64,000 nt of DNA, from IMG/VR virus record IMGVR_UViG_3300027749_000034; one strand, written 5' to 3'. Positions 2,132 to 33,905 of this stretch are shown piece by piece (within the stretch, counting starts at the first letter, position 1; the number at the start of each line of letters is the position of its first letter). The notes under the pieces were generated by a model, which saw nothing but the letters and a program-made list of their open reading frames with translations, searched no databases and was not told the DNA's origin. Made by a program: the position numbers and the translations under genes. This DNA comes from a virus (lineage: Duplodnaviria; Caudoviricetes).

Positions 2132-2160
2132 CAAAAGGCCATTCGTGGCCTTTTGTTTTT
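2132..2160 (+). terminator. Intrinsic terminator
   Basis: CAAAAGGCCA-TTCG-TGGCCTTTTG perfect stem with UUCG loop followed by a T-tract. Confidence 0.85.
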
Positions 2161-2168
2161 TATAAGTA
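2161..2168 (+). promoter_or_regulatory. T4-like late promoter motif TATAAGTA
   Basis: Immediately after the terminator, 6 nt before ATG 2175; resembles the T4 gp55 consensus TATAAATA. Confidence 0.6.
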
Positions 2169-2174
2169 GTGTTA

Positions 2175-3833
2175 ATGAATTTCTTTGACAAAATTTCCAA
2201 GCAAGTAAAAGAGCCGCCTAAGAGAAAAGACTTTGGTTATACTGAGTATTTTCAAAAGGCAGAGAACATGCGAGACAACCTGGACAAAATTAGTCCAACA
2301 ATGTGTCTGGCCAAGTGGTTACAAGTCAGTATCAATCTGGCCAACGGTACCACACAAAGTTGTTATCATCCGCCTCCGCATGCTATTCCACTACTAGAGC
2401 TCAAAGAAAATCCCAGCGCATTGCATAACACCAAGTTCAAAAAACAAGAACGAGAACTAATGTTGACTGGCAAGCGGCCAGAAGGTTGTAGTTACTGTTG
2501 GCGTGTGGAAGATGCACCTGGTGGTGGCCCACAAGGACACCTTAGTGATAGACATTACAAGTCCAGCGAAGACTGGGCCGCCCCTGACTTTCGCAATGTA
2601 GTTCTAAAGGAGGCCGATTTCGATATTGTTCCACGATATGTCGAAGTGAATTTTAATCAGGCTTGTAATTTCAAATGCATGTACTGTAGTCCTCATATCA
2701 GTACAGCATGGGAAGAAGAAATCAAACAGCATGGACCTTACAACTTTGACTTGCCGGGCAAAAACAAGGTTGATCATAACAATCTACGCAATTTAAAAGT
2801 TTCAGGATACATGCCGCTAGAAGTTGCTGTCAAAGATAATCCTTATGTGACAGCATTTTGGAAATGGTGGCCAGACATTTATCGTACACTACGAGTATTT
2901 CGTATGACTGGCGGCGAACCATTGATGGATCGGAATACCTTTAAGGTGTTGGACTATGTGAATGAGAATCCACATGGACAATTAGAACTAAGCATTACCA
3001 GCAACATGTGTCCGCCGGATCAAAAGTTATTTGACAAGTTTATTAGCAAAGTACAGGCCATTGAAGTCATACGCACTTATGAAGATACTGAAAACTTCAA
3101 CAAGTTCAGTGGCAATCATTGGTATGTGGACAAGGGCTTTAAACATTTCTGGTTATACATCAGCTTGGACGGAGTAGGTCAGCAAGCAGAATATATGCGT
3201 ACTGGTTTAGACTATGCAAGATTAATGTCCAACACTAGAAAGTTCTTAGCTGAAACTAAGTACACCACTGTCAGTTTCATCAACACCTTTAACATACTGT
3301 CAATTCCAAGTTTAAAAAGTTGGTTGCAAATGATATTAGATTTGCGAGTAGAATTCGGCGGCCGGAATCAAACTGAGTTTGAAATTGCTCCAGAACCAAC
3401 AGAGCACGAAAAAGAACATGGCATTGAACACAAGAAGTATTTCCAAAAGAAGTTCCAAAGAATATTTTTAGACATACCATTGCTAAAATACCCCAACTGG
3501 TTTGATCCACAAAATGCAACGCCAACCTTGATTGCAACCATTGAAGATTGCTTGGAGTTTATGCGTAGCAATGCACAGCAAGAAGATTACAGAGAAACAT
3601 TTGAAGGTTTCAAGCCACATGAGATATTGAAACTTGAAAGAAATCTAGCTATAATTAAAGAAGGCAAAGACCCTGCCGCTGTTCAAACGAATAGATTACA
3701 ATTTTATCAATACATAAATGAGTATGATAGACGCAGAGATACTGCCTTCTTAGAAGTTTTTCCGGAGATGAACTCCTACTACAATGAATGTAAGTTGTTA
3801 CAAATGAGAATAGACGATGCCAAAGAAACATAA
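2175..3833 (+). CDS. Radical SAM protein with N-terminal twitch-like domain (#1)
   Basis: CLAKW..SCYH..CSYCW N-terminal Cys set; CNFKCMYC (CX3CX2C); TGGEP. Confidence 0.9.
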   Translation: MNFFDKISKQVKEPPKRKDFGYTEYFQKAENMRDNLDKISPTMCLAKWLQVSINLANGTTQSCYHPPPHAIPLLELKENPSALHNTKFKKQERELMLTGKRPEGCSYCWRVEDAPGGGPQGHLSDRHYKSSEDWAAPDFRNVVLKEADFDIVPRYVEVNFNQACNFKCMYCSPHISTAWEEEIKQHGPYNFDLPGKNKVDHNNLRNLKVSGYMPLEVAVKDNPYVTAFWKWWPDIYRTLRVFRMTGGEPLMDRNTFKVLDYVNENPHGQLELSITSNMCPPDQKLFDKFISKVQAIEVIRTYEDTENFNKFSGNHWYVDKGFKHFWLYISLDGVGQQAEYMRTGLDYARLMSNTRKFLAETKYTTVSFINTFNILSIPSLKSWLQMILDLRVEFGGRNQTEFEIAPEPTEHEKEHGIEHKKYFQKKFQRIFLDIPLLKYPNWFDPQNATPTLIATIEDCLEFMRSNAQQEDYRETFEGFKPHEILKLERNLAIIKEGKDPAAVQTNRLQFYQYINEYDRRRDTAFLEVFPEMNSYYNECKLLQMRIDDAKET

Positions 3834-5355
3834 TGAATCCTTTGCCGAATACAAAATTCGGATGGTTGACAGCACTAGCGACAGCTTCTGTGCCGCCAAA
3901 TGGCTCAATGCCACAATTTGGTTGGGCAATGGACAAACAACCAGTTGCCACCATCCACTTGGACATCAAATTGATGCAAGTGAACTCGACGCCAATCCCA
4001 CTGCCATTCACAATACACCGCACAAGAAACTCATGCGTAAGATGATGCAGGAAGGTACTCGTCCACAAGAATGTGAGTACTGCTGGAAGATTGAAGACTT
4101 GGGTCGCAACAGCATATCGGATCGTGTGTACAAAACTGCGGTGTTCTCGGACAAAGACATCATTGCGGCCGCTACCACACATTGGCAACACGATACAATG
4201 TTAAAGACATTGGAAATTTCGTTTGACCGTACTTGCAATTTTTCTTGCAGTTATTGCAACCCCAGCTTTAGTACCAGTTGGGTCAAAGACATTAAAAAGT
4301 TTGGCCCATATCGTAACATTGATGGTGATGCCCGTAGCCACTTTATCAATGCGGCTGACCATGCTATTCCAATTGCAGACGAAACCAATCCTTACATCAA
4401 AGCGTTTTGGCGCTGGTGGGATGAAGGGCTAGCCGACAACTTAGAAGAGATTCGAATCACTGGTGGCGAGCCATTGATGGCTCCGGGCGTTTGGAAACTG
4501 ATGCAATGGTTCAAAGACAATCAAGAACGAGCAACCAAACGAGCCGACGGCGGTGTATTGCGTTATGCCATCAACAGTAACCTGGTGCCCAAAGATGACT
4601 TGATGGACAAGTTTATTGAGTTGAGTAAGTTTGTTCCGCACCTGGAAGTTTATACCAGCAATGAAAGTGTGGGCGCACACAGCGAATACATTCGTGATGG
4701 TATGGTCTACAGCAAATGGAAAGACAATTTGCATCGCTTGCACACTGAAGGCAATATTAAAAAGACACACATGATGATGACCATCAATAGTTTGTGTCTT
4801 GCCAGTATCACCGAATTCATGGATGAGATACTGGAATTCAAGCGTGAGCATAAAACTGTATATCCCACAATGAGTTTGAATATTCTGCGTTTTCCCAGCT
4901 TCCAGAGTTGCGCCATGTTGCCAACCAGCATTAGACAAAAGTATCGCGACAAGTTACAAGCATGGTTGGATAATATAATTGCCCAGGATGAACGAGTACA
5001 AATGGGAACTGGCCCACATGGTTGGCCTATCATGACTCCAATTGAGCGTGAACAAACACAACGACTGATTGACTATCTTGATGTCATCAAGACACCGCAC
5101 AAGAATGTCAAGGATATGGGTCAACAGCACTTGGACTTTAAAAACTTCTACACACAATATGATGTGCGTAGAGGCAAGGACTTCCGTGCAACATTTCCAC
5201 AGGAGTTTGTTGATTGGTATGACAGCATTGATACACCAACTCCGTCAAGAGAAGAAATCCTAAGCGGAACATACAGCGATGAAACTGGACATATTCCAGA
5301 CCATCCGCCCGAAGACCCCAGCAAGGAAGAATTTTTCAATCCGGACTTACAATGA
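3817..5355 (+). CDS. Radical SAM protein with N-terminal twitch-like domain (#2)
   Basis: CAAKW..SCHH..CEYCW; CNFSCSYC; TGGEP. Confidence 0.9.
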   Translation: MPKKHNESFAEYKIRMVDSTSDSFCAAKWLNATIWLGNGQTTSCHHPLGHQIDASELDANPTAIHNTPHKKLMRKMMQEGTRPQECEYCWKIEDLGRNSISDRVYKTAVFSDKDIIAAATTHWQHDTMLKTLEISFDRTCNFSCSYCNPSFSTSWVKDIKKFGPYRNIDGDARSHFINAADHAIPIADETNPYIKAFWRWWDEGLADNLEEIRITGGEPLMAPGVWKLMQWFKDNQERATKRADGGVLRYAINSNLVPKDDLMDKFIELSKFVPHLEVYTSNESVGAHSEYIRDGMVYSKWKDNLHRLHTEGNIKKTHMMMTINSLCLASITEFMDEILEFKREHKTVYPTMSLNILRFPSFQSCAMLPTSIRQKYRDKLQAWLDNIIAQDERVQMGTGPHGWPIMTPIEREQTQRLIDYLDVIKTPHKNVKDMGQQHLDFKNFYTQYDVRRGKDFRATFPQEFVDWYDSIDTPTPSREEILSGTYSDETGHIPDHPPEDPSKEEFFNPDLQ

Positions 5356-6737
5356 AACGAGTAATACCAATTTGGGAACCAGGTAAGCCAGCCAAGGACA
5401 ATCCTAACCCTTATTTCTGTATGGCACCTTGGCGCCACACTTACATCAGTCCGCAAAGTGAGCGCAGACTCTGTTGTGCCAGTAGAGAAGAGCACAGCTT
5501 CCAGAAGCAATACATTGACAGTAGCAATGACAAGGCCTACGGAGCAGTGACTGAAAGCAAGACAGCATTGTCAGATTACCAGCCAGTCAGTTTAAAGGAA
5601 CACTGGAACAGCGACTACATGAAAGATATTCGGGTCAAGCTGATGGCTGGTGAAGAAATTCCACAATGTGATGTGTGCAATCATAATTTACTAATGGAAG
5701 GCAGTTACAAGGGTTGGTTTACAGGTAATCTATTTCGCGAACAGATTCAACAGGCGTTTGATGCAACAGATGAAACAGGCCATACCACAATGGAACCTGT
5801 CAGCTTTGACTACAGGTTCAGTAACCTATGCAATTTCAAATGCCGCATGTGTGGAGAACAATTGAGCAGTAGTTGGGAAGTTGAAAAGAAACAGCATGAC
5901 CTATGGACACCCAAAGACCAACCCTTTATGGTTCCTGAAATCAAGTCTGCCATGCAAGACTTCCAAGCTCGTGTGGTAGAACCTGAATTTCGAGATGCAG
6001 TACAGCGTGGTATCATTGAAGAAATGTATTGGGTAGGTGGCGAGCCATTGATGTATGATATACATTGGTGGACGCTTGAAGAAATGCTTCGCAATGGCAG
6101 TGCAAAAGATTGTTACATGCGCTACAACAGCAATCTAAGTCGTGTGGTGTTTGGTAAAAAGAATCTGTTTGATTACTTGCCGCAATTCAAAGACTGGATG
6201 ATGTGTGCCAGCATAGATGGCACAGGTGAAATTGTAGAATATATTCGTACAGGCATCAAGTGGAACGAGTGGCTGGCCAACTTTAAAGAAGGGGTGAGCT
6301 TGCCTGGCGGTCGAGAGCGCATGAAACTGGATTTGACCATCACAGCACCGGGCATGTTCTCTCTCAAAGATCTATTTGAACTAAGCTTGGAATTAGATGT
6401 TGAAATCATCACAAAGATTACATTTGCGTTCCATGCAGATATCATGTGGACACCAATGAGCTGGCCCAGACATATTTTAAATCGTCACATTGAGGAACTT
6501 GTTGCTTACATGCGACCTTTAGCAGGACCAAAGCAATGGAGTGTAATCTCTACCTTAGAGTCCATGCGTGATAGTAGACAAACACATGAAGAAGCCTTTC
6601 CAGAAACTTATAAGTCAGCGGCCCGCAACGGAATGAATTGGGTCAAGCGGTTGGAAACAATCCGCAAAGATAAAACAACCATGGCCACAATCTATTCTGC
6701 AGATCCAGAACTGCTGGCTTGGTGGGAGAGTCTATGA
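5352..6737 (+). CDS. Radical SAM protein with N-terminal twitch-like domain (#3)
   Basis: CMAPW..LCC..CDVC; CNFKCRMC; VGGEP. Confidence 0.9.
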   Translation: MKRVIPIWEPGKPAKDNPNPYFCMAPWRHTYISPQSERRLCCASREEHSFQKQYIDSSNDKAYGAVTESKTALSDYQPVSLKEHWNSDYMKDIRVKLMAGEEIPQCDVCNHNLLMEGSYKGWFTGNLFREQIQQAFDATDETGHTTMEPVSFDYRFSNLCNFKCRMCGEQLSSSWEVEKKQHDLWTPKDQPFMVPEIKSAMQDFQARVVEPEFRDAVQRGIIEEMYWVGGEPLMYDIHWWTLEEMLRNGSAKDCYMRYNSNLSRVVFGKKNLFDYLPQFKDWMMCASIDGTGEIVEYIRTGIKWNEWLANFKEGVSLPGGRERMKLDLTITAPGMFSLKDLFELSLELDVEIITKITFAFHADIMWTPMSWPRHILNRHIEELVAYMRPLAGPKQWSVISTLESMRDSRQTHEEAFPETYKSAARNGMNWVKRLETIRKDKTTMATIYSADPELLAWWESL

Positions 6738-7927
6738 AAGACACAAGATGCGTGTTACCCTGGATGCATCTGGCCAGCCATCCCAATGGCGGCGTTAGTC
6801 TATGCTGTCGTAGCAATCACACTGATGCAGTCAGTTGGGCAATGAAGCCACGCACAACACAATTACAGACCTTTGACAATACCAACATCTTGACCATTGC
6901 CAACAGCGACAACTTTGTTCGTGTACGGCAAGACATGATTGATGGCAAGGAACCTGTTGAATGTGAAGGTTGCTGGCAGGATGAGGCCGCTGGCCTGGTC
7001 AGCAAGCGCATGTACGAAAATGAACGCTGGGCACATATTGTACCAGAGCTGGAACAAACAGCACGATTGACCAAGCCAAACTATCGTTATGTTGAGCTGA
7101 GACTTGGCAATGTATGCAACAATGCCTGCGTGACCTGCAACAGTTTCAGCAGTAGCAAGTGGTACGGAGATGAAGTCAAGATTGCCAAGGATCTGCCTTG
7201 GTTTACATTGCGACCAATGGAAAACTTCAAATGGCATGACCGACCAGAGTTTTATTCTGAGCTGGCCACATTGAGCACAGATGTAGAAGAGATTTACATC
7301 AACGGTGGTGAACCAACACTGATAAAAGCACACTTTGGTTACCTTGAAAAGCTGATAGCCACAGGGCAAGCACAACAGGTACACTTGGTGTACAGTCTTA
7401 ACATGATGGATATTCCAGACAGACTTGCTGACTTATGGAAACACTTTAAACGGGTCACTGTCAACTGTAGTGTCGACGACTACGGTGCTAGAAATTATTA
7501 CATTCGTTGGCCCAGTGTATGGGTTGACACAGTCAACAGCATCAAGAAATTGGATGCAATTCACACTGTGGACTGGCATGTGACACAAACTGTCAGCATA
7601 TTCAATGTGTTTAATCTAGACAAACTGGATGACTGGATGCGATATTCATTTGATAAAAACACAACTCATAACTATGTGTTGTATCCAGACTATCTCAGTT
7701 TACAGGCTGTTCCAACAGCACTTAAAGCACAATTAAAATCCAAGTATGAATACAAGTTTGATGATGCCAAAAGAAATGAATTGTATGCCAAGCTTGACAG
7801 ACCTTGGATTCCTGAATTGACTGTCAAGGCCAGGGAGTTTGTTACAGCGTTGGATAAGAGTCGTGAGTTAAACTATAAAACTTATGTGCCTGAACTAGAA
7901 GAAATTATAAATGCAGATACCAATTAA
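6734..7927 (+). CDS. Radical SAM protein with N-terminal twitch-like domain (#4)
   Basis: CVLPW..LCC..CEGCW; CNNACVTC; NGGEP; ATGA overlap with #3. Confidence 0.9.
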   Translation: MKDTRCVLPWMHLASHPNGGVSLCCRSNHTDAVSWAMKPRTTQLQTFDNTNILTIANSDNFVRVRQDMIDGKEPVECEGCWQDEAAGLVSKRMYENERWAHIVPELEQTARLTKPNYRYVELRLGNVCNNACVTCNSFSSSKWYGDEVKIAKDLPWFTLRPMENFKWHDRPEFYSELATLSTDVEEIYINGGEPTLIKAHFGYLEKLIATGQAQQVHLVYSLNMMDIPDRLADLWKHFKRVTVNCSVDDYGARNYYIRWPSVWVDTVNSIKKLDAIHTVDWHVTQTVSIFNVFNLDKLDDWMRYSFDKNTTHNYVLYPDYLSLQAVPTALKAQLKSKYEYKFDDAKRNELYAKLDRPWIPELTVKAREFVTALDKSRELNYKTYVPELEEIINADTN

Positions 7928-9188
7928 CATTGAACACAGCTTTTGTGCGGCCAAGTGGCTGATGGTCACCATGCACTTTGGCATGGGTGAGAATCACTCC
8001 TGCTATCATCCACCGATACACCGTTGGGACTTGGCGGATGTAAACACGAACCCAGGTGCATTGCACAACAGCAAGCACAAGATCAAACAGCGAGAAATGA
8101 TGCTGAACGGCATCCGTCCCAAAGAGTGTAGCTATTGTTGGGACATGGAAGACATTGATGCCACAGCAGTCAGTGATCGTAAGCGTTTTACCAATGAAAC
8201 CTGGGCTATTGAACGCAGACAAGAGATATTATCTGCGCCAGCTGACCAGCCTGTTGGTCCAGCACACTTGGAAATTTCATTTGCCAACACCTGCAACTTT
8301 GCCTGTAGCTATTGCAGTCCTGGGCAAAGCTCAACATGGGAACACGAAATAAGCAAGTACGGTTCATACCCAATTGAAGATCCAACTGTGCATCGAGACA
8401 AGATGCACGATATGATACCCGAGGATAACAATCCTTACATTGATGCATTTTGGAAGTGGTTACCTGAAATATATTCTGGCCTGCGTTATCTACGCATAAC
8501 AGGTGGAGAGCCTTTGGCCACCCGTAACTTCATGAAGCTGTTGGATTATGTGGCAGAGAATCATAATCCTGAGCTGACACTGGTTGTCAACACCAACCTG
8601 TGTGTACCTGAAAAGAACTTGGATCTATTCTTTACCAAAGCAACAGCATTGCTTGAAGCAAAGACTATTAAAGGACTCGAAGTTTACACCAGCATGGACA
8701 CATGGGGACCACAAGCAGAATACATTCGTGACGGACTTGACATTGTCAAGTGGGAAGCAACAGTACGCAAGGTCAGCACAACATTTGGAGTGCCTATTCG
8801 TGTAATGGTCACATTTGGCCTGATGAGTGTGTTTAACTTCAGTGTGTTTGTACAGAAAGTAATTGACATGCGAGCCGACGGCATTGATATCATGTTCAAT
8901 TGCTGTCGTCTTGTTGACCCCAAGCAGTTTGACCTACGCATCTTGCCAGACAGTTGCGATCAATACTTTGATACAGTCAATGACTTTGTGCTGACCAATC
9001 CTACTGTGAGTGTTGAAAGAGAAACATGGGAAATGGTCTATCAGTTCTGGAAGTCTAGACACACTGCAATGAATGTGATTGAGCGCGATCATCGCCGAGA
9101 TCAATTTGCTCGATTCACAGCAGAGTATGATAAACGCAGAAGCTTAAACTTTGCCGCGACCTTTCCGGAATTGGCAGGATGGATTTAA
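7911..9188 (+). CDS. Radical SAM protein with N-terminal twitch-like domain (#5)
   Basis: CAAKW..SCYH..CSYCW; CNFACSYC; TGGEP. Confidence 0.9.
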   Translation: MQIPINIEHSFCAAKWLMVTMHFGMGENHSCYHPPIHRWDLADVNTNPGALHNSKHKIKQREMMLNGIRPKECSYCWDMEDIDATAVSDRKRFTNETWAIERRQEILSAPADQPVGPAHLEISFANTCNFACSYCSPGQSSTWEHEISKYGSYPIEDPTVHRDKMHDMIPEDNNPYIDAFWKWLPEIYSGLRYLRITGGEPLATRNFMKLLDYVAENHNPELTLVVNTNLCVPEKNLDLFFTKATALLEAKTIKGLEVYTSMDTWGPQAEYIRDGLDIVKWEATVRKVSTTFGVPIRVMVTFGLMSVFNFSVFVQKVIDMRADGIDIMFNCCRLVDPKQFDLRILPDSCDQYFDTVNDFVLTNPTVSVERETWEMVYQFWKSRHTAMNVIERDHRRDQFARFTAEYDKRRSLNFAATFPELAGWI

Positions 9189-10294
9189 CACCTTTTAAAA
9201 ACTGTCTGGCGCATCGGCACGGCCTGTACATATCAAATGAAACCAAGCCATACATGCCTTGCTGTTGGTTCAAGCCCGGAGTCAGTGCCAGTACCTACAG
9301 CGAATATCAAAGTAAATTGAGTGAAATTGATATTGCCGCCGGCTGTCGACATTGTATTGATCAAGAAAGTGCAGGCGCAACATGGAGCCATCGTCAGTTG
9401 TTTAAAGATGTAAATGAGTTGGTCATTGGTGTATGCTTTGACAATCTTTGCAATATCAAATGTATCACTTGTAATCCCTATTATAGTAGTCAGCACATAA
9501 GCGAGTGGGAAAAGTTGGACAAGTTCAATACTCGTGGGCTTACCAAGAAATACTTTAACACCATGCTGGATCAGGGCAGTAGCAAGCTTGCAATGATTGA
9601 AGATACTATATCAAACTCAAGTTTTAATAAGTTACGCTTAGAAATTTTTGGTGGTGAACCATTGATCAATCCAGTGGTGTTGAAGTTCATTGCCTGGCTG
9701 GCCGCCAGTGACCATGCCGATATAACTGAACTGGTTATAACAACAAATGGTACTACCTCACTGACAGTGATTGAATCTGAATTAAAAAACTTCAAGCGAG
9801 TATTGATTCAATTCAGTGTAGATGGAGTTGACGAGGCATTTGATTCAATGCGTTACGGCGCTGACTTTGACAAAATGAAAGTCAATGTTGATTACTTCCG
9901 GGCGTTGACACAGTTGCACAACAATCTAAATTACGGGTTTAATTTTACTTTGTCCTGGCTAAATGCTGATTCATTCCTGCCCTATTACAATTGGTTGCTG
10001 TTAAATTATATTGATGCGGACAGTTTACATTTGACAAAACTAGATAGGCCAGAATATTATGCAGTTAATTTACTGCCAGAGTCTCGACGAGACAGCTTGT
10101 TGTCATTGTTGCCACAGTTGGCACCTAATCAACAGTTTCAAAGACTGTTGGATCTATATAAAGAATCTTTACAATTTACAACCAATATTGACACAGCTCT
10201 GTTGAGTCAAGGCATTAACGAATTGAAAAAGCTAGTGACTGTTCGCAACCATAATGAACATATACAAAGATTGATTGACGAATACCAGACATAA
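9179..10294 (+). CDS. Radical SAM protein with N-terminal twitch-like domain (#6)
   Basis: CLAH..PCCW..CRHC; CNIKCITC; FGGEP. Confidence 0.88.
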   Translation: MDLTPFKNCLAHRHGLYISNETKPYMPCCWFKPGVSASTYSEYQSKLSEIDIAAGCRHCIDQESAGATWSHRQLFKDVNELVIGVCFDNLCNIKCITCNPYYSSQHISEWEKLDKFNTRGLTKKYFNTMLDQGSSKLAMIEDTISNSSFNKLRLEIFGGEPLINPVVLKFIAWLAASDHADITELVITTNGTTSLTVIESELKNFKRVLIQFSVDGVDEAFDSMRYGADFDKMKVNVDYFRALTQLHNNLNYGFNFTLSWLNADSFLPYYNWLLLNYIDADSLHLTKLDRPEYYAVNLLPESRRDSLLSLLPQLAPNQQFQRLLDLYKESLQFTTNIDTALLSQGINELKKLVTVRNHNEHIQRLIDEYQT

Positions 10295-10301
10295 CCTGTT
10301 G

Positions 10302-10309
10302 AATAAATA
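10302..10309 (+). promoter_or_regulatory. Late promoter-like motif AATAAATA
   Basis: 5 nt upstream of ATG 10315; no SD. Confidence 0.5.
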
Positions 10310-10314
10310 TCGCT

Positions 10315-11634
10315 ATGAACACTGAATTTAACCCGCTAGAATTGGCCAAGAAAAGTAGAACCTTCTGTATCCTGCCTTGGATCCATCAATATGTAGGACC
10401 ACCTGGAGATGTCAAGCCCTGCTGTGTATACGAACACAAGGAACAAATTGGCAGTCTCAAACAAAATACACTAAAAGAAATTTGGAACAATGACGCTACG
10501 CGGACCATGCGCCTGAAATTTCTAAACGGTGAAGAAGATGCCAACTGTGGTCGTTGCAACAGCAGAGTTGAATTGGAAGCTGAATTTAAAAATAAATTTA
10601 ACGATGACTTCTTTAAGAACAATCAAGCTGTACACTCAATTGTGGCCGCAACCAATCCTGATGGTAGCCTAGACGAACACAAGTTGATCTACATGGATGT
10701 GCGTTTTAACAATCTATGTAATCTAGGGTGCCGCAGTTGTGGTCCACACTTTAGCACCAGTTGGATTGTGGATAGTCGCAAGCTGTACAACAAGAAGACC
10801 AAAGAATCAATCAATGATGAATTCCAGTTTCCAGGGCAAACAGAAGAACAAGCACTAGAAGAAATGATGCCGCATCTGCCCACAATGAAAAGCATTTATT
10901 TTGCCGGTGGCGAACCATTGATGCAAAAAGAACACTACGAAACACTGAACAAGCTGGTAGAGCTGGGTAATTCGCAATGCGGTATTAGATACAATACAAA
11001 CTTCAGTAAACTGACCCTGGGCAAACATGATGTGATTGAATATTGGAAAAACTTCAAGGATATCAATGTCAATGCCAGTCTGGATGGCAGTTATGCCAAA
11101 GCAGAATACTGGCGTCACGGTACTGTATGGAAGGATGTTGTGGCCAACAGATTGCGAATGCGCGAACAAGCGCCACATGTTAGATTCAACATTGGCTTTA
11201 CGCTCAGTTGGCCCAACGCTCACAACCTGATTGAATTCCACAGAGAATGGGTAGAGCTGGGTTATATTCACCCAGATAACATCTTATTAAATGTTCTAGA
11301 TGGACCAAGCTATTACTCGTTAAAGAATATTCCAGACTGGAAGAAGCATCAAATTGAAAAGCTTTTTAGAGAACAAATGACATGGCTACAGGAACGAGGA
11401 TGCAACAAACAAACCCTGTTCATGTACGAAACAGCTATTGGGTTTATGTGGCAAGTACGCTCACTTGAAACTTATAAGATTACAAACCTGCACGACAGTT
11501 TGAAGAACTTTAGTCGCATTACCAAGAAGCTGGATACAATTCGCGGAGAAGATTTTTGGAAAACATTTCCAGAGCATGCTGATATGCGAGACTACATGAC
11601 CGAGCATGATCTACACGACGAATTTGATTACTAA
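10315..11634 (+). CDS. Radical SAM protein with N-terminal twitch-like domain (#7)
   Basis: CILPW..PCC..CGRC; CNLGCRSC; AGGEP. Confidence 0.9.
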   Translation: MNTEFNPLELAKKSRTFCILPWIHQYVGPPGDVKPCCVYEHKEQIGSLKQNTLKEIWNNDATRTMRLKFLNGEEDANCGRCNSRVELEAEFKNKFNDDFFKNNQAVHSIVAATNPDGSLDEHKLIYMDVRFNNLCNLGCRSCGPHFSTSWIVDSRKLYNKKTKESINDEFQFPGQTEEQALEEMMPHLPTMKSIYFAGGEPLMQKEHYETLNKLVELGNSQCGIRYNTNFSKLTLGKHDVIEYWKNFKDINVNASLDGSYAKAEYWRHGTVWKDVVANRLRMREQAPHVRFNIGFTLSWPNAHNLIEFHREWVELGYIHPDNILLNVLDGPSYYSLKNIPDWKKHQIEKLFREQMTWLQERGCNKQTLFMYETAIGFMWQVRSLETYKITNLHDSLKNFSRITKKLDTIRGEDFWKTFPEHADMRDYMTEHDLHDEFDY

Positions 11635-12887
11635 TGAATGAGCAAAAACTATTTAAAATTCGTCAGGCAACAAGTCCAACATTTTGCTTGGCCAAGTTTC
11701 ACGAAGCAAGTATCTGGGTATACTCAGGCAAGATAGCCAGCTGTCATTATACGCCATTCCTACAGGTTGGCACCACAGTTGACACATTCTACAATCCGCC
11801 AGAAAAACGCAGTCACCAACAGAGTATGCTGGCCGGAGAACAGCCGCCTGCATGCAACAGTTGCTGGCATTTTGAGAATCTTGGCTTGACCAGTGATCGT
11901 ACTCGCAAAAGCCTGGCATTTACGGATCACTTGACAGCAGAGGAATACTTTGATCCTGCTTACAACTTTAAACCAAAAGCATTGGAGTTGGCATTTCAAA
12001 ACACCTGCAACCTGGCCTGTAGCTATTGCAGTCCACAGTTCAGCACCAGCTGGATCAATGATATTCGAACTCGAGGTGTATACACTGGAATCATCACAGA
12101 CGACCGCAAGCACTATCAAAAGGATCTGAGTGAACTGGATGAAATGATTGCGCCCCCAGATATGACATTGTTCTGGCAGTGGTTTGAAACAGTTGCTCCA
12201 GGACTAGAAAGTATTCGTGTCAGTGGTGGTGAACCACTCATGCACGAAGAAGTATTCAAACTGTTTGACCGGATGACCGAAATAAATCCCAATATTGAAT
12301 GTGTCGTACACACTAACCTTTGTCAAAAGCCCGTGGTAATTGAACGCTTCTTAGAAAAAGCCAAGCGATTAAACAACCTGCGTGTCAATGTCAGCAATGA
12401 AAGTGCAGGTGCTGTGGCAGAGTTTATTCGCGAAGGCATGGTCTACGATGAATGGTTGCATAATATGGAATTATTATGCAACAGCAATGTCAGCGTGGCC
12501 ACAGTCAGCACAACCTGTAGCGCAATTAGCCTACAAGCCCTGGATCGAATGTATATTGACATCATTAAAATGCGAGAGCGCACTCGTATTAAACCAGCTG
12601 TCACTATTAATATGGTAGACAAACCAGACTTCCAGGGCTTTGGTTGTTTAAGCAGAGCAGACAGAGACTTTTATATCAAAAAATACACTGCCTTCTATGC
12701 CACGATTCAAAATGATTTACTTCCATTTGAAGTAGAGTACGCTGAACGATTGATTAAAATGTTAGATGCGGGGCTTATTAAAGATAACCAAGCGGCATTG
12801 CGTAAGGATAGCGATACATTCTTTGAACAGTACACACAGCGAAGAAACAAGCCTGTTAACTTTGCACAATTTATAGGCAAAGTATGA
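11634..12887 (+). CDS. Radical SAM protein with N-terminal twitch-like domain (#8)
   Basis: CLAKF..SCHY..CNSCW; CNLACSYC; SGGEP; TAATG coupling. Confidence 0.9.
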   Translation: MNEQKLFKIRQATSPTFCLAKFHEASIWVYSGKIASCHYTPFLQVGTTVDTFYNPPEKRSHQQSMLAGEQPPACNSCWHFENLGLTSDRTRKSLAFTDHLTAEEYFDPAYNFKPKALELAFQNTCNLACSYCSPQFSTSWINDIRTRGVYTGIITDDRKHYQKDLSELDEMIAPPDMTLFWQWFETVAPGLESIRVSGGEPLMHEEVFKLFDRMTEINPNIECVVHTNLCQKPVVIERFLEKAKRLNNLRVNVSNESAGAVAEFIREGMVYDEWLHNMELLCNSNVSVATVSTTCSAISLQALDRMYIDIIKMRERTRIKPAVTINMVDKPDFQGFGCLSRADRDFYIKKYTAFYATIQNDLLPFEVEYAERLIKMLDAGLIKDNQAALRKDSDTFFEQYTQRRNKPVNFAQFIGKV

Positions 12888-13447
12888 TAACAAAATTAGT
12901 TGATCAGTTTCCTAATTTGCTAATCATGGAAGTGCATGATGTTGCCCTTCCGGAGATTAAGTTTGAAGAGTTAGTATACACAGAACCAGACCATCATACC
13001 AATAAAATGTATCCAGGTAAACGATACTATGAGGATTACAAGAATCCTGTTGGTTACAAGGTTAGTTGCCTCTTTAGAGATATAGTGTTTAATTTTATCA
13101 TTCAACCAATGAGAGATGACATGAGATTTAAACCCTATGAACAGTATCTTGGTAACCTTACATTTGGAACACAAATATGTAGAGATGATCCAGGCTGGCA
13201 ACAGCAAATGCACATTGACCAGCCTGTAATATTGTTATCTGGGGTAGTGCATATAACTGATACAATTACACCTACCCATTTTTATGCCAACAGTAATGAT
13301 ACAACGCCAATTTATACAGCACCATCAAAGGCTGGTTCGGGCGCATTCTGGTTAAACCTGCCAAACAGTTGGCATAATGTACCACCTGTAACAGAACAAA
13401 GAAATCACATTATTACATTCGTACAGGTATCAAGAGAAATATGTTAA
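12884..13447 (+). CDS. 2OG-Fe(II) oxygenase-like protein
   Basis: HID...WHNV...R facial-triad-like pattern (HxD...H...R). Confidence 0.65.
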   Translation: MITKLVDQFPNLLIMEVHDVALPEIKFEELVYTEPDHHTNKMYPGKRYYEDYKNPVGYKVSCLFRDIVFNFIIQPMRDDMRFKPYEQYLGNLTFGTQICRDDPGWQQQMHIDQPVILLSGVVHITDTITPTHFYANSNDTTPIYTAPSKAGSGAFWLNLPNSWHNVPPVTEQRNHIITFVQVSREIC

Positions 13448-14367
13448 TTTACAAATACACAGCACCACAGGGCGAAATAAAACAAATTGAAGTTGAATTA
13501 TTAGATAATAAATTTGTCAATGAATGGCAACAATACCTGACTCGTACTGCCGCTAGATTGCCAAGCATATTGTGGAATTTTAGTAGTCATGGTATGGCCA
13601 AACAGTACAAGGCCAATCCAATTCCTTTACTAACTGATTTACATAAGTCATTTGTGTTTTTACAAACTCATCTTGGTATTGACTTTGCTAAAGAAATTGC
13701 AGATTTGGTACACTTACTAGAAGTACCCAACGATTTAACACAGGCACATCTTAATACATGGCATAGACACTTTACCACTGTGGCAACAGAATACTACAGC
13801 GGTCGCATGAAAATACCAGCAGAGGTTAGAGTAGATGAAATGTTCGAACGATTCCATGCATTAAATCAGAATGTACACGATTTAGAGTTTATGACATACC
13901 CGACACTAAGTCGCCGAACAGCCATTGGTGATAAACAACAGTATAGCGCATTCTGTGCCGACGCTAGAGCACTTGAAGGCAGTAATGCGTTGTGGGCCAG
14001 CGGCCACGCAGAAAGTATCACAGACTCGTTTGATCCGGCCACTGAAGAATATCACTATGATGTATGGATCAATGAAGATATACAGGGCAAAGATCATATG
14101 AAGGCCTGGCTAGACGAAGATGACCTATTGGAAACAGATGTGTGGGGCAACAGTTTTATGACTCCGAATGTCATGTTTGATCCTCACATGATATATGCCA
14201 GCATAATTGACAATCCAGCGTTCATGGCCGACTATCAAGCCAGTGCCAAGAAACTGAATCGCTGGCCCTTGGGCAAGATAGTTAACACAGTCGATTGGCC
14301 AAAATTAACCAAGAGCAGGATTAGCTCTATCGTATTAGATAATATTACATTATGGAAAATTCAATGA
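13441..14367 (+). CDS. Hypothetical protein inside the radical SAM operon
   Basis: 308-aa ORF overlapping both neighbours; no family recognised. Confidence 0.75.
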   Translation: MLIYKYTAPQGEIKQIEVELLDNKFVNEWQQYLTRTAARLPSILWNFSSHGMAKQYKANPIPLLTDLHKSFVFLQTHLGIDFAKEIADLVHLLEVPNDLTQAHLNTWHRHFTTVATEYYSGRMKIPAEVRVDEMFERFHALNQNVHDLEFMTYPTLSRRTAIGDKQQYSAFCADARALEGSNALWASGHAESITDSFDPATEEYHYDVWINEDIQGKDHMKAWLDEDDLLETDVWGNSFMTPNVMFDPHMIYASIIDNPAFMADYQASAKKLNRWPLGKIVNTVDWPKLTKSRISSIVLDNITLWKIQ

Positions 14368-15803
14368 AAACAGTGGCATTTGCATTGTATGATCAACTTG
14401 ATCACAAGAATAAAACATACAGAGACCATGTCAGAGCTATTTCTACCTTTGATATTCGTGTCACAATGAACAGGCGCGGTCTAAACAAGCATTCAATTCT
14501 AGAAGGCAACAACATTGATGCATTGATATCACAAGCGTTTGACGCCGGTTACGATTATATCTACCTAATGAACATTGGTTATATCACCAGCGATCATGAC
14601 CTGATCGCAAACATATTGAATTTCGCAGAAGAAAATGAGTATGGATTAGTTGGACATCTATTAGAAGACCAAAAATATTTTAAAGGCCAATCCGAGGGAT
14701 TTTTCCATTTACACACACAAAGCTTTCTTTTAAATCTGCATATATGGAACAATTTTGGTTGTCCACGCTTTGGTGACAAAGGCACAGTACACGATATTAA
14801 AATTGCAGATTACAACAGAAGCGATGAAAACATACACGATGATTATACCCCATTGTGGCTGACACCTGTGGGTGGCCCGCGACCACCAAATTTACAATCA
14901 AATGCCAAAACATACTCGGGCCCGGTCGGGCCCGGTTGGAACTTGATTAATACTTTCCTGACAAATCAATGTGCTGTTGGTAATTTTGATGAATATATTA
15001 GAAGAAAGAAGTCATATCTATATCCAGAAATTGATGACGACAGGTTTGAGCGCATACTGGGTGGCGAGCAAGGAATTACTGTAGAACCCACTGGTCCAAC
15101 TTATGCTCAATGCCATTATCTTAAAGAAACAGACTTTACCAATGTGACAGGCGCAGTATTTGTTTTTAATAACGACAGCATGGAATTAGAAAGAATTAAG
15201 TATTCTCCGACGACACGACTGGGCACATTGTATGCTGTGGCCGCTGGTTTTAAACCTTTACAGTTGCTAAGCCAAGTTGATTGTGATACGGCCCGAGTAG
15301 TGTACATTGACTACAGCCAAGACGCATTAAACTATCGCCAATGGTTAGTTGATAACTGGGACGGTGTTGATTATATGCAGGCCATAGAACAGTACCGACA
15401 AGTAAATCCCAACTTTGATCCAATTTGGCTGCCTGGTCGTCAACAACAGTATCCACAAGAATGGGCAAATACACTTGATTTATTTGGTGGCCAACAACAA
15501 TGGTTAAAGTTTTGGAACAAGTACAAGGCACTGGAGCATGGGTATATTAAAACCAATTTAATAAATGAATATTCGGCCATGCTTGCGGACATGAAACAAA
15601 ATCCTGGTAATAATATGATTTGGATCAGCAACAGCTTCCACACTCCTGCGACAATTAGAAACTTTGCACCAGGCTTATTACAGGACAGCTGGGACGACTT
15701 TCTAAAATCTGTAGTTGACAACAATGTATGTGTACAAATGGTTGGATATGATCACATCGGCGGATATCAAACTCGATTACATGGTAAAATACAATATGAA
15801 TGA
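14364..15803 (+). CDS. Hypothetical two-domain protein (possible GT-A-like N-terminus, Rossmann/methyltransferase-like C-terminus)
   Basis: ORF is solid; the domain guess rests on GYDYIYLMNIG and on LYAVAAGFKP...VVYIDYS, and is weak. Confidence 0.55.
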   Translation: MKTVAFALYDQLDHKNKTYRDHVRAISTFDIRVTMNRRGLNKHSILEGNNIDALISQAFDAGYDYIYLMNIGYITSDHDLIANILNFAEENEYGLVGHLLEDQKYFKGQSEGFFHLHTQSFLLNLHIWNNFGCPRFGDKGTVHDIKIADYNRSDENIHDDYTPLWLTPVGGPRPPNLQSNAKTYSGPVGPGWNLINTFLTNQCAVGNFDEYIRRKKSYLYPEIDDDRFERILGGEQGITVEPTGPTYAQCHYLKETDFTNVTGAVFVFNNDSMELERIKYSPTTRLGTLYAVAAGFKPLQLLSQVDCDTARVVYIDYSQDALNYRQWLVDNWDGVDYMQAIEQYRQVNPNFDPIWLPGRQQQYPQEWANTLDLFGGQQQWLKFWNKYKALEHGYIKTNLINEYSAMLADMKQNPGNNMIWISNSFHTPATIRNFAPGLLQDSWDDFLKSVVDNNVCVQMVGYDHIGGYQTRLHGKIQYE

Positions 15804-16509
15804 ACAGATTGTTGAATTTTTTGCTGACACGCCCTGGACTTTTAATTTTAAAGAACAGGCAGTTCCTGCATTCGATTCCGACAGGGAACTGGTGCAGTGG
15901 CTGATATACAAAAGCGGCTGGCCATACCTGCCATTGGAATTGCCCGGCGCACCTTATGCAGATATGCTGGCAGAAGCCGCGGCATTAGAGGACTTGTATA
16001 TTGCACATAGAAGTTATGGCAGTCCTGGCTGGAGAAGCATTTGCTTACACGGCGAAGCTTGGGACAAGACTGATTATTATACTGCCTACCCTGAAAATGC
16101 AGGCCGTAATGCTAATGAAATTATATATAAATGGACAGAAATTGCAGAACGCTGTCCTGTCACTACCAAATACTTTAAAGACGAATTTCCCAACCACAAT
16201 TATCAGCGATTACGATACATGTGGCTGGATCCGCAGGGCTACATTGAACCACATCAAGACAGGACAGAACATTTCTTATCCCCAATCAATGTGGCATTAA
16301 ACAATCCAGACGGGTGTGTTTTTAGAATGAAAGGTCATGGTGATGTCCCTTTTAAAGATTCGGGCAATGCTTGCCTAGTAGACGTTGGTCGCATACATAG
16401 TGTATGGAACAACAGTTCCGAGCCCAGGATACACATGATATCGCATGGTGCACCTTCCGCTACATTTGACAAAATAGTAGCAGACAGCCTGAGAGCCGCA
16501 CTTAAATGA
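15796..16509 (+). CDS. Aspartyl/asparaginyl beta-hydroxylase-like 2OG-Fe(II) oxygenase
   Basis: RLRYMWLDPQGYIEPHQD...PINVAL...IHSVWNNSSEPRIHMI. Confidence 0.8.
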   Translation: MNEQIVEFFADTPWTFNFKEQAVPAFDSDRELVQWLIYKSGWPYLPLELPGAPYADMLAEAAALEDLYIAHRSYGSPGWRSICLHGEAWDKTDYYTAYPENAGRNANEIIYKWTEIAERCPVTTKYFKDEFPNHNYQRLRYMWLDPQGYIEPHQDRTEHFLSPINVALNNPDGCVFRMKGHGDVPFKDSGNACLVDVGRIHSVWNNSSEPRIHMISHGAPSATFDKIVADSLRAALK

Positions 16510-18816: not shown

Positions 18817-18824
18817 TATAAGTA
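18817..18824 (+). promoter_or_regulatory. Late promoter-like motif TATAAGTA
   Basis: Follows the terminator, 5 nt before ATG 18830; same layout as 2161. Confidence 0.55.
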
Positions 18825-33896: not shown

Positions 33897-33905
33897 GGAA
33901 CTGCA

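What the first reader, a model, noticed from the sequence alone, without database searches (positions are those of the whole stretch)
2175..12887. Eight tandem, translationally coupled radical SAM genes with N-terminal twitch-like domains in a phage-like genome
Seen in sequence: eight consecutive ORFs (371-552 aa) each carry an N-terminal Cys cluster, a CX3CX2C motif followed by an S..S(T/S).W-like segment, and GGEP. They are intact, highly diverged and mostly overlapping, and the array starts at a terminator plus late-promoter motif. Established: SPASM/twitch domains normally lie C-terminal to the radical SAM core, in enzymes that modify peptides or proteins (AnSME, RiPP maturases), amino sugars (BtrN) or GTP (MoaA). 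N-terminal-twitch radical SAMs are a family of unknown function. Inference: about 11 kb of retained, diverged paralogs suggests a multi-step radical-chemistry assembly line, e.g. hypermodifying virion proteins, glycans or DNA. This is the strongest candidate for an undescribed system in the window.
Basis: partly seen in the sequence, partly recalled or inferred. Interest (0 to 1): 0.92.

Follow-up and report, generated by a model that had tools for sequence, protein, structure and literature searches.

The report
Phage radical-SAM array, likely glycan-tailoring
A large freshwater phage carries eight old, individually conserved copies of an untested radical-SAM enzyme family. They are an enlarged version of a five-enzyme set found in hundreds of uncultured phages among sugar-handling genes, so they most likely edit a sugar structure by unknown chemistry.

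Summary
Eight consecutive same-strand genes (2175-12887) encode radical SAM proteins with a four-Cys N-terminal twitch-like domain, CX3CX2C and GGEP. Seven pass the NCBIfam NF033640 cut-off. They form the front of a 13-gene operon that runs to 17672.

The copies are not recent duplicates. Each falls in its own orthogroup. Five of these (R1, R2, R3, R6, R7) co-occur in 54 of 80 related viral loci. There they usually follow tail-fibre-like and glycosyltransferase-like genes and precede SGNH, carbamoyltransferase and amidinotransferase genes.

Against an 80%-identical relative, dN is 0.08-0.19 while synonymous sites are saturated.

Bacterial relatives of R7 mostly sit in polysaccharide-type clusters. 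A few sit in a peptide-maturation-like cluster.

In this window the array has lost the glycosyltransferase/fibre context. It keeps a GT-A plus methyltransferase-like protein, an Asp/Asn-hydroxylase-type cupin and a ninth radical SAM/SPASM enzyme.

Best reading, at about 0.5: a multi-enzyme cassette that tailors a glycan, on the virion or on the host surface. The reaction is unknown. Protein modification is the main rival.

No family member has been characterised. The literature mentions such cassettes only in passing. This scan reached the same reading on other phage DNA (e1-5338036, e1-5367861).

The parts
2132..2155 (+). Terminator-like hairpin (10-bp stem, T-run) that closes the upstream DUF3307 gene
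2161..2168 (+). TATAAGTA, a late-promoter-like octamer 7 nt before the first ATG. It recurs upstream of ORFs at 18817 and 19695.
   Evidence: Function not shown. RNA-library contigs start covering after about 2067 and none lies on 1500-2066.
2175..3833 (+). R1, N-twitch radical SAM (552 aa). Core orthogroup, first gene of the array in most phages.
   Evidence: NF033640 290 bits. Clade of 64 leaves in 64 loci, support 0.999.
3817..5355 (+). R2, N-twitch radical SAM (512 aa). Core orthogroup.
   Evidence: NF033640 299 bits. Clade 69 leaves/69 loci, support 0.915. 51.5% identical ortholog in Ralstonia phage RsoM2USA.
5352..6737 (+). R3, N-twitch radical SAM (461 aa). Core orthogroup.
   Evidence: NF033640 299 bits, N-terminal Pfam SPASM. 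Clade 62 leaves/62 loci, support 1.0.
6734..7927 (+). R4, N-twitch radical SAM (397 aa; alternative TTG start at 6719). Accessory orthogroup shared with bacterial loci.
   Evidence: NF033640 325 bits. Present in 14 of 80 viral loci.
7911..9188 (+). R5, N-twitch radical SAM (425 aa). Accessory orthogroup found only in the nearest relatives.
   Evidence: NF033640 283 bits. Clade 7 leaves/7 loci, support 1.0.
9179..10294 (+). R6, shortened N-twitch radical SAM (371 aa). Core orthogroup, loosely defined.
   Evidence: NF033640 148 bits, below the 170 cut-off. Keeps all seven Cys. Replaced by a methyltransferase gene in the 80% relative L172.
10315..11634 (+). R7, N-twitch radical SAM (439 aa). Core orthogroup and the one shared with most bacterial relatives.
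   Evidence: NF033640 356 bits. AlphaFold2 model pLDDT 93.9. Clade 85 leaves/72 loci, support 0.957.
11634..12887 (+). R8, N-twitch radical SAM (417 aa). Accessory orthogroup.
   Evidence: NF033640 242 bits, Pfam Radical_SAM 44.8 bits. Clade 9 leaves/9 loci, support 1.0.
12884..13447 (+). Unknown 187-aa protein in the same operon. An H-x-D ... H pattern hints at a small cupin oxygenase (my inference only).
   Evidence: No Pfam, NCBIfam, PHROG or PDB hit.
13441..14367 (+). Unknown 308-aa protein, conserved after the array in relatives (67% identical in L172).
   Evidence: Only a weak, non-significant profile resemblance to the companion protein c5 that follows R3 in most phages (E 0.047).
14352..15803 (+). 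483-aa two-domain protein: GT-A glycosyltransferase-like fold (1-260) plus class I methyltransferase-like fold (260-479).
   Evidence: Model pLDDT 92.3. Z 12.2 to the LH3 GT-A-like accessory domain, Z about 11 to Mimivirus R699, COLGALT1 and TarP, Z 9.7-11.4 to methyltransferases. AFDB 'glycosyltransferase 2-like' cluster at E 9e-22. Homologues occur fused to Asp_Arg_Hydrox.
15781..16509 (+). Asp/Asn beta-hydroxylase-type cupin (Fe/2-oxoglutarate oxygenase family PF05118)
   Evidence: PF05118 E 3.7e-12. Conserved next to the 483-aa protein in L172 and L145, and fused to it in Bdellovibrionales.
16506..17672 (+). Ninth radical SAM (388 aa) with the usual C-terminal SPASM/twitch region. Last gene of the operon.
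   Evidence: Cluster c14 is found in 10 viral and 6 bacterial loci next to N-twitch genes.

Best explanation
The eight genes are the catalytic core of a phage operon (2175-17672) that tailors a carbohydrate structure.

SHOWN
- They are eight distinct, anciently diverged members of the uncharacterised N-terminal-twitch radical SAM family.
- Five (R1, R2, R3, R6, R7) are the fixed core of a cassette that recurs in hundreds of uncultured phages. R4, R5 and R8 are additions.
- In most phages the core lies directly behind tail-fibre-like genes and GT-A-like glycosyltransferase candidates. It is interleaved with, or followed by, SGNH-type esterases/acyltransferases, an O-carbamoyltransferase, a StrB1-like amidinotransferase and sugar-nucleotide enzymes.
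- In bacterial chromosomes the R7 type lies in polysaccharide-type clusters.

INFERRED
- Each enzyme uses its SAM cluster to abstract a hydrogen from a different position or residue of a sugar or glycan.
- The fully Cys-ligated auxiliary cluster acts as an electron conduit, as in BtrN or anSME. This would give oxidation, epimerisation or a similar C-H functionalisation.
- The products are then decorated, for example by carbamoyl, amidino, acyl or methyl groups. In this window, hydroxylation and glycosyl transfer by the cupin and the GT-A/methyltransferase-like protein would be added.

UNRESOLVED
- Whether the glycan sits on the phage's own fibres or virion or on the host envelope.
- Which reaction each paralog performs.
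For: - Family and motifs.
- Tandem arrays: all 80 best IMG/VR loci carry 2-11 tandem copies, most often 5-6. In contrast, 60 of 79 loci from the bacterial/archaeal genome collection have one copy.
- Orthogroups: R1, R2 and R3 clades have one member per locus in 62-69 loci with support 0.92-1.0. 54 of 80 loci hold all five core groups. Identity is 0.56-0.62 within a group and 0.20-0.36 between groups. R1, R2 and R3 have 23-72 group-specific conserved columns.
- Synteny: fibre-like c9/c4, GT8-like c2 x2, c3, then R1 R2 R7 R6 R3, then c5, SGNH c11, carbamoyltransferase c7, amidinotransferase c12.
- Other sugar enzymes in the same loci: NAD epimerase/dehydratase, UDP-glucose dehydrogenase, DegT aminotransferase, GT4.
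- Bacterial chromosomes: in L036, a complete Crocinitomicaceae chromosome, R7-type genes sit among UDP-Glc dehydrogenase, epimerase, carbamoyltransferase, a UbiA-GT4-GDSL fusion, PhyH oxygenases and an ABC ATPase.
- Cultured phage: Ralstonia phage RsoM2USA keeps a lone R2 ortholog flanked by three SGNH-like genes and the carbamoyltransferase.
- Nearest relative: the 80% relative L172 keeps c3 directly before R1, behind a 1714-aa He_PIG protein.
- In-window companion: GT-A plus methyltransferase-like fold.
- Selection: dN 0.08-0.19 with saturated dS.
- Natural fusions: R7-R6, R1-R2 and R6-R3 fusion proteins follow the gene order of the array.
- Transcription: contigs from four lake RNA libraries lie on the array. 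Depth over neighbouring genes is very uneven, as expected of transcripts.
Against: - No member of the family has a tested activity, and no substrate is identified.
- In this window the glycosyltransferase, fibre, carbamoyltransferase and amidinotransferase neighbours are absent. They are also absent from the 96.6 kb of genome held.
- Several 'glycosyltransferase' calls are weak: c2 has E 0.002 to glycogenin, c3 rests only on automatic Atlas cluster names, and c1 and c5 have no hits.
- The nearest solved folds to R7 include protein and peptide modifiers (anSME, SuiB, SkfB) as well as sugar enzymes (BlsE, DesII), all at low similarity.
- Alphaproteobacterial R7 homologues sit beside a PqqD-like protein, an HprK-like kinase and an ABC exporter, which looks like peptide maturation.
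- Other single-copy bacterial homologues have uninformative housekeeping neighbours.
- RNA-library contigs cannot exclude carried-over DNA.
Confidence: 0.5

Rival explanations
1. The enzymes modify a protein post-translationally, most plausibly the phage's own fibre or virion proteins. Possible reactions are epimerisation, cross-linking, or oxidation of side chains in the manner of anSME. The cupin hydroxylase and the GT-A protein would then add hydroxyl-linked sugars, in a collagen-like hydroxylate-then-glycosylate logic.
For: - The cassette normally lies directly behind tail-fibre-like genes. Pelagimyophage work places radical SAM cassettes in the 'host recognition cluster' (PMC7029224).
- The nearest solved folds include anSME, SuiB, SkfB and EpeE.
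- Alphaproteobacterial R7 homologues lie next to PqqD, an HprK-like kinase, two GT2 genes and an ABC exporter.
- The 483-aa companion best matches the GT-A-like domain of lysyl hydroxylase LH3, Mimivirus R699 and COLGALT1. It is fused to, or adjacent to, an Asp/Asn-hydroxylase cupin.
Against: - None of the eight has a PqqD/RRE domain.
- The operon has no room for a precursor-peptide gene: the only gap is 20 nt.
- The fibre-like c4 protein has no Cys.
- Sugar-nucleotide enzymes, carbamoyltransferase, amidinotransferase and SGNH genes are hard to explain by pure protein chemistry.
- The GT-A fold matches are nearly tied across many glycosyltransferases.
Confidence: 0.25
2. The cassette makes a diffusible small molecule, such as an aminocyclitol- or aminoglycoside-like or other modified-sugar metabolite, rather than decorating a polymer.
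For: - The amidinotransferase matches StrB1 best (E 3.6e-72).
- The NodU/CmcH/TobZ-type carbamoyltransferase, the DegT aminotransferase and the twitch-domain match to BtrN of butirosin synthesis recall aminoglycoside pathways.
- A cyanophage paper lists a similar trio as 'antibiotic synthesis genes' (PMC12801897).
Against: - The cassette is consistently placed among fibre genes and several glycosyltransferase-like genes.
- Bacterial relatives sit with ABC-transporter and prenyl-phosphate-type polysaccharide genes.
- No cyclitol synthase or exporter was seen in the phage loci.
- The window itself lacks the amidino- and carbamoyltransferases.
Confidence: 0.1
3. The enzymes modify nucleic acid (phage DNA or tRNA).
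For: Only this: radical SAM enzymes do act on nucleotides (MoaA, QueE and viperin give weak partial hits), and first-stage notes place a dpdA deazaguanine module elsewhere in this genome (unchecked).
Against: - No nucleic-acid-binding or nucleotide-metabolism gene is conserved with the cassette in 80 viral loci.
- The dpdA module is about 180 kb away.
- The partial hits cover only the generic GGEP region.
Confidence: 0.03

Closest known systems
NCBIfam NF033640, N_Twi_rSAM (twitch domain-containing radical SAM protein)
   Same: Seven of the eight pass the curated cut-off and the eighth is a shortened member. They share the N-terminal four-Cys domain, CX3CX2C and GGEP.
   Different: The family is only catalogued. 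I found no paper naming it or an 'N-terminal twitch/SPASM', and no reviewed protein has the whole architecture. Here there are eight members in one operon, belonging to separate orthogroups.
BtrN (butirosin 2-deoxy-scyllo-inosamine dehydrogenase), the founding twitch-domain radical SAM enzyme acting on a sugar-like substrate
   Same: The single auxiliary-cluster domain has the same Cys spacing (C-x17-18-C ... C-x2-C). The profile match to the BtrN twitch domain has E 1.7e-6. Both have a carbohydrate-type pathway context.
   Different: In BtrN the twitch domain is C-terminal, whereas here it precedes the core. There is no significant similarity over the rest of the protein. The dehydrogenase chemistry is only an analogy.
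anSME and peptide-modifying SPASM/twitch maturases (SuiB, SkfB, CteB, EpeE)
   Same: These are among the nearest solved folds to the R7 model over the radical SAM core (E 1e-5 to 1e-3, TM 0.3-0.44).
   Different: Those enzymes have C-terminal SPASM or twitch domains, often with an N-terminal RRE, and lie next to a precursor gene. Here there is no RRE and no precursor, and only four conserved auxiliary Cys.
Radical SAM cassettes noted in T4-like marine phages (a T4-like environmental genome with 12 radical SAM genes, PMC5332604; pelagimyophage 'host recognition cluster', PMC7029224)
   Same: Very probably the same kind of cassette: multiple radical SAM genes in the fibre or host-recognition region of T4-like uncultured phages.
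   Different: Those papers only count or mention the genes. They define no family, orthogroup structure or function. The present phage is a freshwater jumbo relative in which the cassette is detached from the fibre/glycosyltransferase module.
Collagen-type hydroxylase/glycosyltransferase pairs (human LH3/PLOD3 with COLGALT1; Mimivirus R699)
   Same: The 483-aa companion has a GT-A fold that matches these best (Z 11-12). It is adjacent to, or elsewhere fused with, a 2-oxoglutarate-type hydroxylase.
   Different: The hydroxylase belongs to the Asp/Asn beta-hydroxylase family, not the lysyl hydroxylases. Sequence identity is 6-11%. Many other GT-A enzymes score within 1-2 Z units. No collagen-like substrate was seen.

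Membership tests
NCBIfam NF033640 (N_Twi_rSAM) | Whole-protein score at or above the curated cut-off of 170 bits | tested here: met
   Seven of eight score 242-356 bits. The sixth gene (9179-10294) scores 148 bits, so it fails the cut-off, but it groups inside the family tree.
NCBIfam NF033640 (N_Twi_rSAM) | Auxiliary Cys-rich (twitch) domain placed N-terminal to the radical SAM core | tested here: met
   Four invariant Cys lie before CX3CX2C in all eight and in 78 relatives. Pfam SPASM hits fall at residues about 10-110. The BtrN twitch domain aligns to residues 7-95.
Radical SAM superfamily | CX3CX2C cluster motif and the GGEP SAM-binding motif | tested here: met
   Both are invariant in all eight. 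Pfam PF04055 is above its gathering score in only three of eight and below it in the others.
Radical SAM superfamily | Binding of [4Fe-4S] clusters and reductive cleavage of SAM | not testable with these tools
   This needs anaerobic reconstitution and detection of 5'-deoxyadenosine.
SPASM-domain enzymes (two auxiliary clusters) | Seven or eight conserved auxiliary Cys (CX9-15GX4C ... CX2CX5CX3C ... C) | tested here: not met
   Only four auxiliary Cys are conserved. This is a twitch-type, single-cluster arrangement.
RiPP radical SAM maturases | RRE (PqqD-like) domain or protein, and a precursor-peptide gene in the cluster | tested here: not met
   None of the eight has a PF05402 hit. Genes overlap or are 20 nt apart, which leaves no room for a precursor. 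A PqqD neighbour exists only in some alphaproteobacterial homologues.
BtrN-type radical SAM sugar dehydrogenases | Sequence relationship over the catalytic core and demonstrated alcohol oxidation | tested here: inconclusive
   Only the twitch domain matches. BtrN is not among the top core-fold matches. Activity could not be tested.
Phage five-orthogroup N-twitch cassette (defined here) | Presence of R1, R2, R3, R6 and R7 orthologues in one same-strand array | tested here: met
   The window has one member of each, plus R4, R5 and R8. 54 of 80 viral loci have all five.
Phage five-orthogroup N-twitch cassette (defined here) | Flanking fibre-like genes, c2/c3 glycosyltransferase-like genes, c5 and carbamoyltransferase | tested here: not met
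   Cluster profiles find none of these in the window or in the 96.6-kb record. The 80% relative L172 still has c3 before R1.

The most novel reading that the evidence does not exclude
Phages of several T4-like and jumbo lineages encode a dedicated radical-SAM assembly line of five to thirteen non-redundant enzymes, possibly working as a physical complex. It would carry out a series of C-H functionalisations on a glycan attached to their receptor-binding fibres or virion. The result would be a virus-made, hypermodified sugar coat that tunes host recognition or hides the particle from defences. This would be a new branch of radical SAM carbohydrate chemistry and a new layer of phage-host specificity.
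Probability: 0.3. Interest if true: 0.85.

Novelty: new variant of a known kind. Interest (0 to 1): 0.68.

Why it matters
- The family is large: 9,158 clusters at 50% identity match the profile at E <= 1e-30. It is abundant in aquatic phages and has no characterised member.
- A fixed set of five non-interchangeable paralogs, kept in hundreds of phages next to fibre and sugar genes, points to several unknown enzymatic reactions.
- It may also point to phage-made glycan decoration, which is little studied in tailed phages.
- Two cultured phages offer a way into experiments. Ralstonia phage RsoM2USA has a single R2 ortholog with SGNH and carbamoyltransferase genes. Vibrio phages K566 and K567 have four family members.

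Tried and rejected
- Literature. Searches for NF033640, 'N-terminal twitch' and 'N-terminal SPASM' found nothing. Combined searches on polysaccharide/epimerase terms and on carbamoyl-/amidinotransferase terms gave nothing relevant.
- Locus search with the eight paralogs. The alignment of the eight was too diverged to seed a locus search. An alignment of R7 orthologues was used instead.
- Companion proteins c3, c1 and c5. Profiles gave no usable PDB hit. The Atlas gave nothing for c5.
- Link between window ORFs and companion clusters. The 308-aa ORF compared with c5 gave E 0.047, which is not significant. The 483-aa ORF compared with c1 or c3 showed no relation.
- Weak-hit Pfam scan of the remaining unknowns gave nothing. 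PDB sequence searches with the 187-aa ORF and the cupin gave nothing useful.
- Missing companions. I searched the whole held record for the fibre, GT, carbamoyl- and amidinotransferase companions and found none.
- dN/dS. Ratios could not be computed for most genes because synonymous sites are saturated. I report only dN and the saturation.
- Canonical T4 late motif TATAAATA is not enriched in the window: 3 found, 3.2 expected.
- Recent tandem duplication is rejected by the tree and by 19-36% identity between paralogs.
- DNA modification is rejected for lack of any supporting neighbour.
- No complex prediction was run.

Full report
**What is there**

The window is part of an IMG/VR virus record (96.6 kb, CheckV estimate 27% complete). 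Identical proteins occur on freshwater-lake contigs listed at up to 293 kb. A T4-type clamp loader, ClpX and Lon homologues mark it as a large T4-like phage.

Eight + strand ORFs run from 2175 to 12887. They overlap by 1-17 nt, apart from one 20-nt gap. All match NCBIfam NF033640, 'twitch domain-containing radical SAM protein'. Seven score 242-356 bits against a cut-off of 170. The sixth scores 148 bits because its N-terminus is shortened.

The alignment of the eight shows four invariant N-terminal Cys, CX3CX2C, a conserved Ser in the segment that follows, and GGEP. Identity to paralog 1 is only 19-36%. Pfam SPASM hits fall at the N-terminus. A family profile aligns residues 7-95 with the C-terminal twitch domain of BtrN (E 1.7e-6). 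Only four auxiliary Cys are conserved across 78 relatives, so the domain is twitch-like and not SPASM.

**Operon limits**

A terminator-like hairpin (2132-2155) closes the upstream DUF3307 gene. TATAAGTA follows at 2161-2168, 7 nt before the ATG. This octamer occurs five times in the window (1.7 expected; 3 of 100 shuffles reach 5). Two more copies sit directly upstream of ORFs, at 18817 and 19695. The canonical TATAAATA is not enriched, but one copy lies at 17668, just before the next gene.

No + strand terminator-like site with a comparably long stem (10 bp) interrupts 2175-17672; the others have 5-7 bp. Five more overlapping genes follow the eight:
- a 187-aa unknown;
- a 308-aa unknown;
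- a 483-aa protein;
- an Asp/Asn-hydroxylase-type cupin;
- a ninth radical SAM with a C-terminal SPASM region.

The unit is therefore a 13-gene operon.

**Not a private expansion**

All 80 best loci carry 2-11 tandem family members, most often five or six. Of 79 loci from the bacterial/archaeal genome collection, 60 have a single copy. Several of the multi-copy ones are plainly phage contigs binned into MAGs.

I built a tree of 555 members. Each window paralog falls in its own clade:

| Orthogroup | Leaves | Loci | Support |
|---|---|---|---|
| R1 | 64 | 64 | 0.999 |
| R2 | 69 | 69 | 0.915 |
| R3 | 62 | 62 | 1.0 |
| R7 | 85 | 72 | 0.957 |
| R4, R5, R8 | 7-10 | 7-10 | about 1.0 |

R6 is only loosely resolved. 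Fifty-four of the 80 viral loci contain R1, R2, R3, R6 and R7 together. Identity is 0.56-0.62 within R1, R2 and R3, and 0.20-0.36 between groups. R1, R2 and R3 have 23-72 group-specific conserved columns. Only 18 columns are shared by all five core groups: the seven Cys, GGEP, three Arg and a few others. There are two subfamilies, {R1, R2, R5, R8} and {R3, R4, R6, R7}.

**Selection and expression**

I compared the window with a relative of about 80% identity (L172, on a 176-kb contig). dN is 0.08-0.19 while synonymous sites are saturated. That is strong purifying selection on every copy.

Contigs from four independent lake RNA libraries lie on most of the array. One 2.3-kb contig spans the R1-R2-R3 junctions, and none covers 1500-2066. 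On a neighbouring control stretch the same libraries give depths from near 0 to over 40 between adjacent genes. That fits transcripts better than carried-over DNA, but it is not proof.

**Context in other phages**

The usual order is as follows:
1. a tail-fibre-like protein with an intramolecular-chaperone-type C-terminus (c9; phrog_19602);
2. a Thr/Gly-rich protein (c4);
3. c6;
4. two GT8/glycogenin-like proteins (c2; weak, E 0.002);
5. c8;
6. c3, which falls in Atlas clusters automatically named 'glycosyltransferase 2-like';
7. R1 (sometimes followed by c1), R2, R7, R6, R3;
8. c5;
9. SGNH-like c11;
10. a NodU/CmcH-type carbamoyltransferase (c7);
11. often a cytidylyltransferase-like c15. This is my reading of an HxGH-like motif only; Pfam gave no hit;
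12. on the opposite strand, an amidinotransferase closest to StrB1 (c12, E 3.6e-72).

NAD-dependent epimerase/dehydratase, UDP-glucose dehydrogenase, DegT aminotransferase, B12-radical SAM and GDSL genes also occur in these loci. R3 is followed by c5 in 48 of 61 cases. c1 carries a TEK-x-WKP motif that recalls fucosyltransferase-type enzymes. That rests on my own knowledge and was not tested.

Two cultured phages are relevant. Ralstonia phage RsoM2USA has a 51.5% identical R2 ortholog flanked by three c11 genes and the carbamoyltransferase. Vibrio phages K566 and K567 carry four family members.

**Context in bacteria**

In Crocinitomicaceae, Fluviicola, Saprospiraceae and Chitinophagales, R7-type genes lie among polysaccharide-type genes. 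One example, L036, is a complete chromosome. The neighbours there are UDP-glucose dehydrogenase, epimerase/dehydratase, carbamoyltransferase, a UbiA-GT4-GDSL fusion, GT4, tandem PhyH oxygenases, a WelO5-like oxygenase and an ABC ATPase.

Bdellovibrionales loci combine R4- and R6-type genes with the amidinotransferase, the c14 radical SAM, and a fusion of the hydroxylase with the homologue of the window's 483-aa protein.

Some alphaproteobacterial homologues instead sit beside PqqD, an HprK-like kinase, two GT2 genes, a nucleotidyltransferase and an ABC exporter. That looks like peptide maturation, possibly glycopeptide maturation. Other single-copy homologues have uninformative neighbours.

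**This window's version**

The order here is R1 R2 R3 R4 R5 R6 R7 R8. Cluster profiles find no fibre, c2, c3, c5, carbamoyl- or amidinotransferase gene in the window or in the whole held record. The 80% relative L172 still has c3 immediately before R1, behind a 1714-aa He_PIG protein. It has a methyltransferase in place of R6, and NifU and IscA genes downstream. The window thus shows a relocated, enlarged cassette.

The 483-aa companion folds with pLDDT 92.3 into two domains:
- a GT-A domain (residues 1-260), with Z 12.2 to the GT-A-like accessory domain of lysyl hydroxylase LH3 and Z about 11 to Mimivirus R699, COLGALT1 and TarP;
- a class I methyltransferase-like domain (residues 260-479).

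AFDB clusters named 'glycosyltransferase 2-like' match it at E 9e-22. Homologues are fused to the Asp/Asn-hydroxylase domain in bacteria and viruses.

The R7 model (pLDDT 93.9) matches solved and reviewed radical SAM enzymes only over the core. Those matches are GDGT-MAS, anSME, BlsE, SuiB, SkfB and NirJ-like proteins. No match has the N-terminal domain.

**Family size and fusions**

A family profile finds 9,158 50%-identity clusters at E <= 1e-30. Among the best hits are proteins with two or three family modules. Their order mirrors the array: R7-R6 in several independent clusters, R1-R2, and R6-R3. This suggests that neighbouring enzymes act together. Some of these 'fusions' may be gene-calling read-through.

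**Interpretation**

The conserved one-of-each set, the group-specific conservation and the fusions argue for a pathway or complex in which each enzyme has its own site or step.

The recurrent company argues that the substrate is a carbohydrate structure. That company consists of glycosyltransferase-like, sugar-nucleotide, SGNH, carbamoyl- and amidinotransferase genes in phages, and polysaccharide clusters in bacteria.

The fully Cys-ligated single auxiliary cluster, with BtrN-like spacing, is compatible with an electron-transfer role in oxidation or epimerisation. This is inference from established knowledge of BtrN and anSME.

I cannot tell whether the glycan is on the virion or on the host envelope. 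The position behind fibre genes favours the virion. I put this reading at about 0.5. The rivals are:
- protein modification, about 0.25;
- a diffusible sugar-derived metabolite, about 0.1;
- nucleic-acid modification, about 0.03.

**Prior knowledge**

Two papers mention such genes in passing. One describes a T4-like environmental genome with 12 radical SAM genes (PMC5332604). The other notes radical SAM cassettes in the pelagimyophage host recognition cluster (PMC7029224). Neither defines the family or a function.

Earlier follow-ups in this scan reached the same 'sugar module behind fibre genes' reading on other phage DNA (e1-5338036 and e1-5367861). I reproduced it independently here. This report adds:
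- the orthogroup structure of the eight-gene version;
- the selection test;
- the natural fusions;
- the fold of the GT-A/methyltransferase-like companion;
- the cultured-phage footholds.

Noticed in passing
window 33905-34104: Contigs from all four lake RNA libraries skip exactly this 200-nt stretch (8 nt fit both sides). It lies in an ORF-poor region after ORF 33192-33518. It could be a strain-specific insertion or a spliced-out element.
   Followed up: no
window 30938-31900 (- strand): A tenth radical SAM gene (Pfam Radical_SAM E 1.9e-13), unrelated to the array's family and on the opposite strand.
   Followed up: no
window 53201-53539: IscA/HesB-type Fe-S carrier gene (PF01521, E 1.2e-20). 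The 80% relative L172 has NifU plus two IscA-like genes right after its array. This suggests the phage supports Fe-S cluster supply for its many radical SAM enzymes.
   Followed up: partly
window 14-619, 600-1157, 1757-2116: Just upstream of the array lie a Bax1-inhibitor/YccA-like membrane protein, a redoxin/peroxiredoxin and a DUF3307 membrane protein. The Bax1-I gene also precedes the array in viral locus L145.
   Followed up: no
window 17697-18512, 20269-20955, 21296-22048, 23801-25030, 62770-63999: Downstream genes: a non-specific DNA/RNA endonuclease (preceded by TATAAATA at 17668), a cell-wall hydrolase, a second Asp/Asn-hydroxylase-like cupin, ClpX-like and Lon-like ATPases.
   Followed up: no
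loci L024, L025, L031, L054 (bacterial): Tandem runs of four to eight PhyH-type Fe/2-oxoglutarate oxygenase genes, plus a WelO5-like gene, beside R7-type radical SAM genes in Bacteroidota and Henriciella polysaccharide-type clusters. This is a second, oxygen-dependent set of tailoring paralogs.
   Followed up: partly
proteins P0155-P0157, P0160, P0163, P0166, P0174: Metagenomic proteins of about 790-1000 aa consist of two family modules in the order of the array (R7-R6, R1-R2, R6-R3). They are either true fusions or read-through gene calls.
   Followed up: partly
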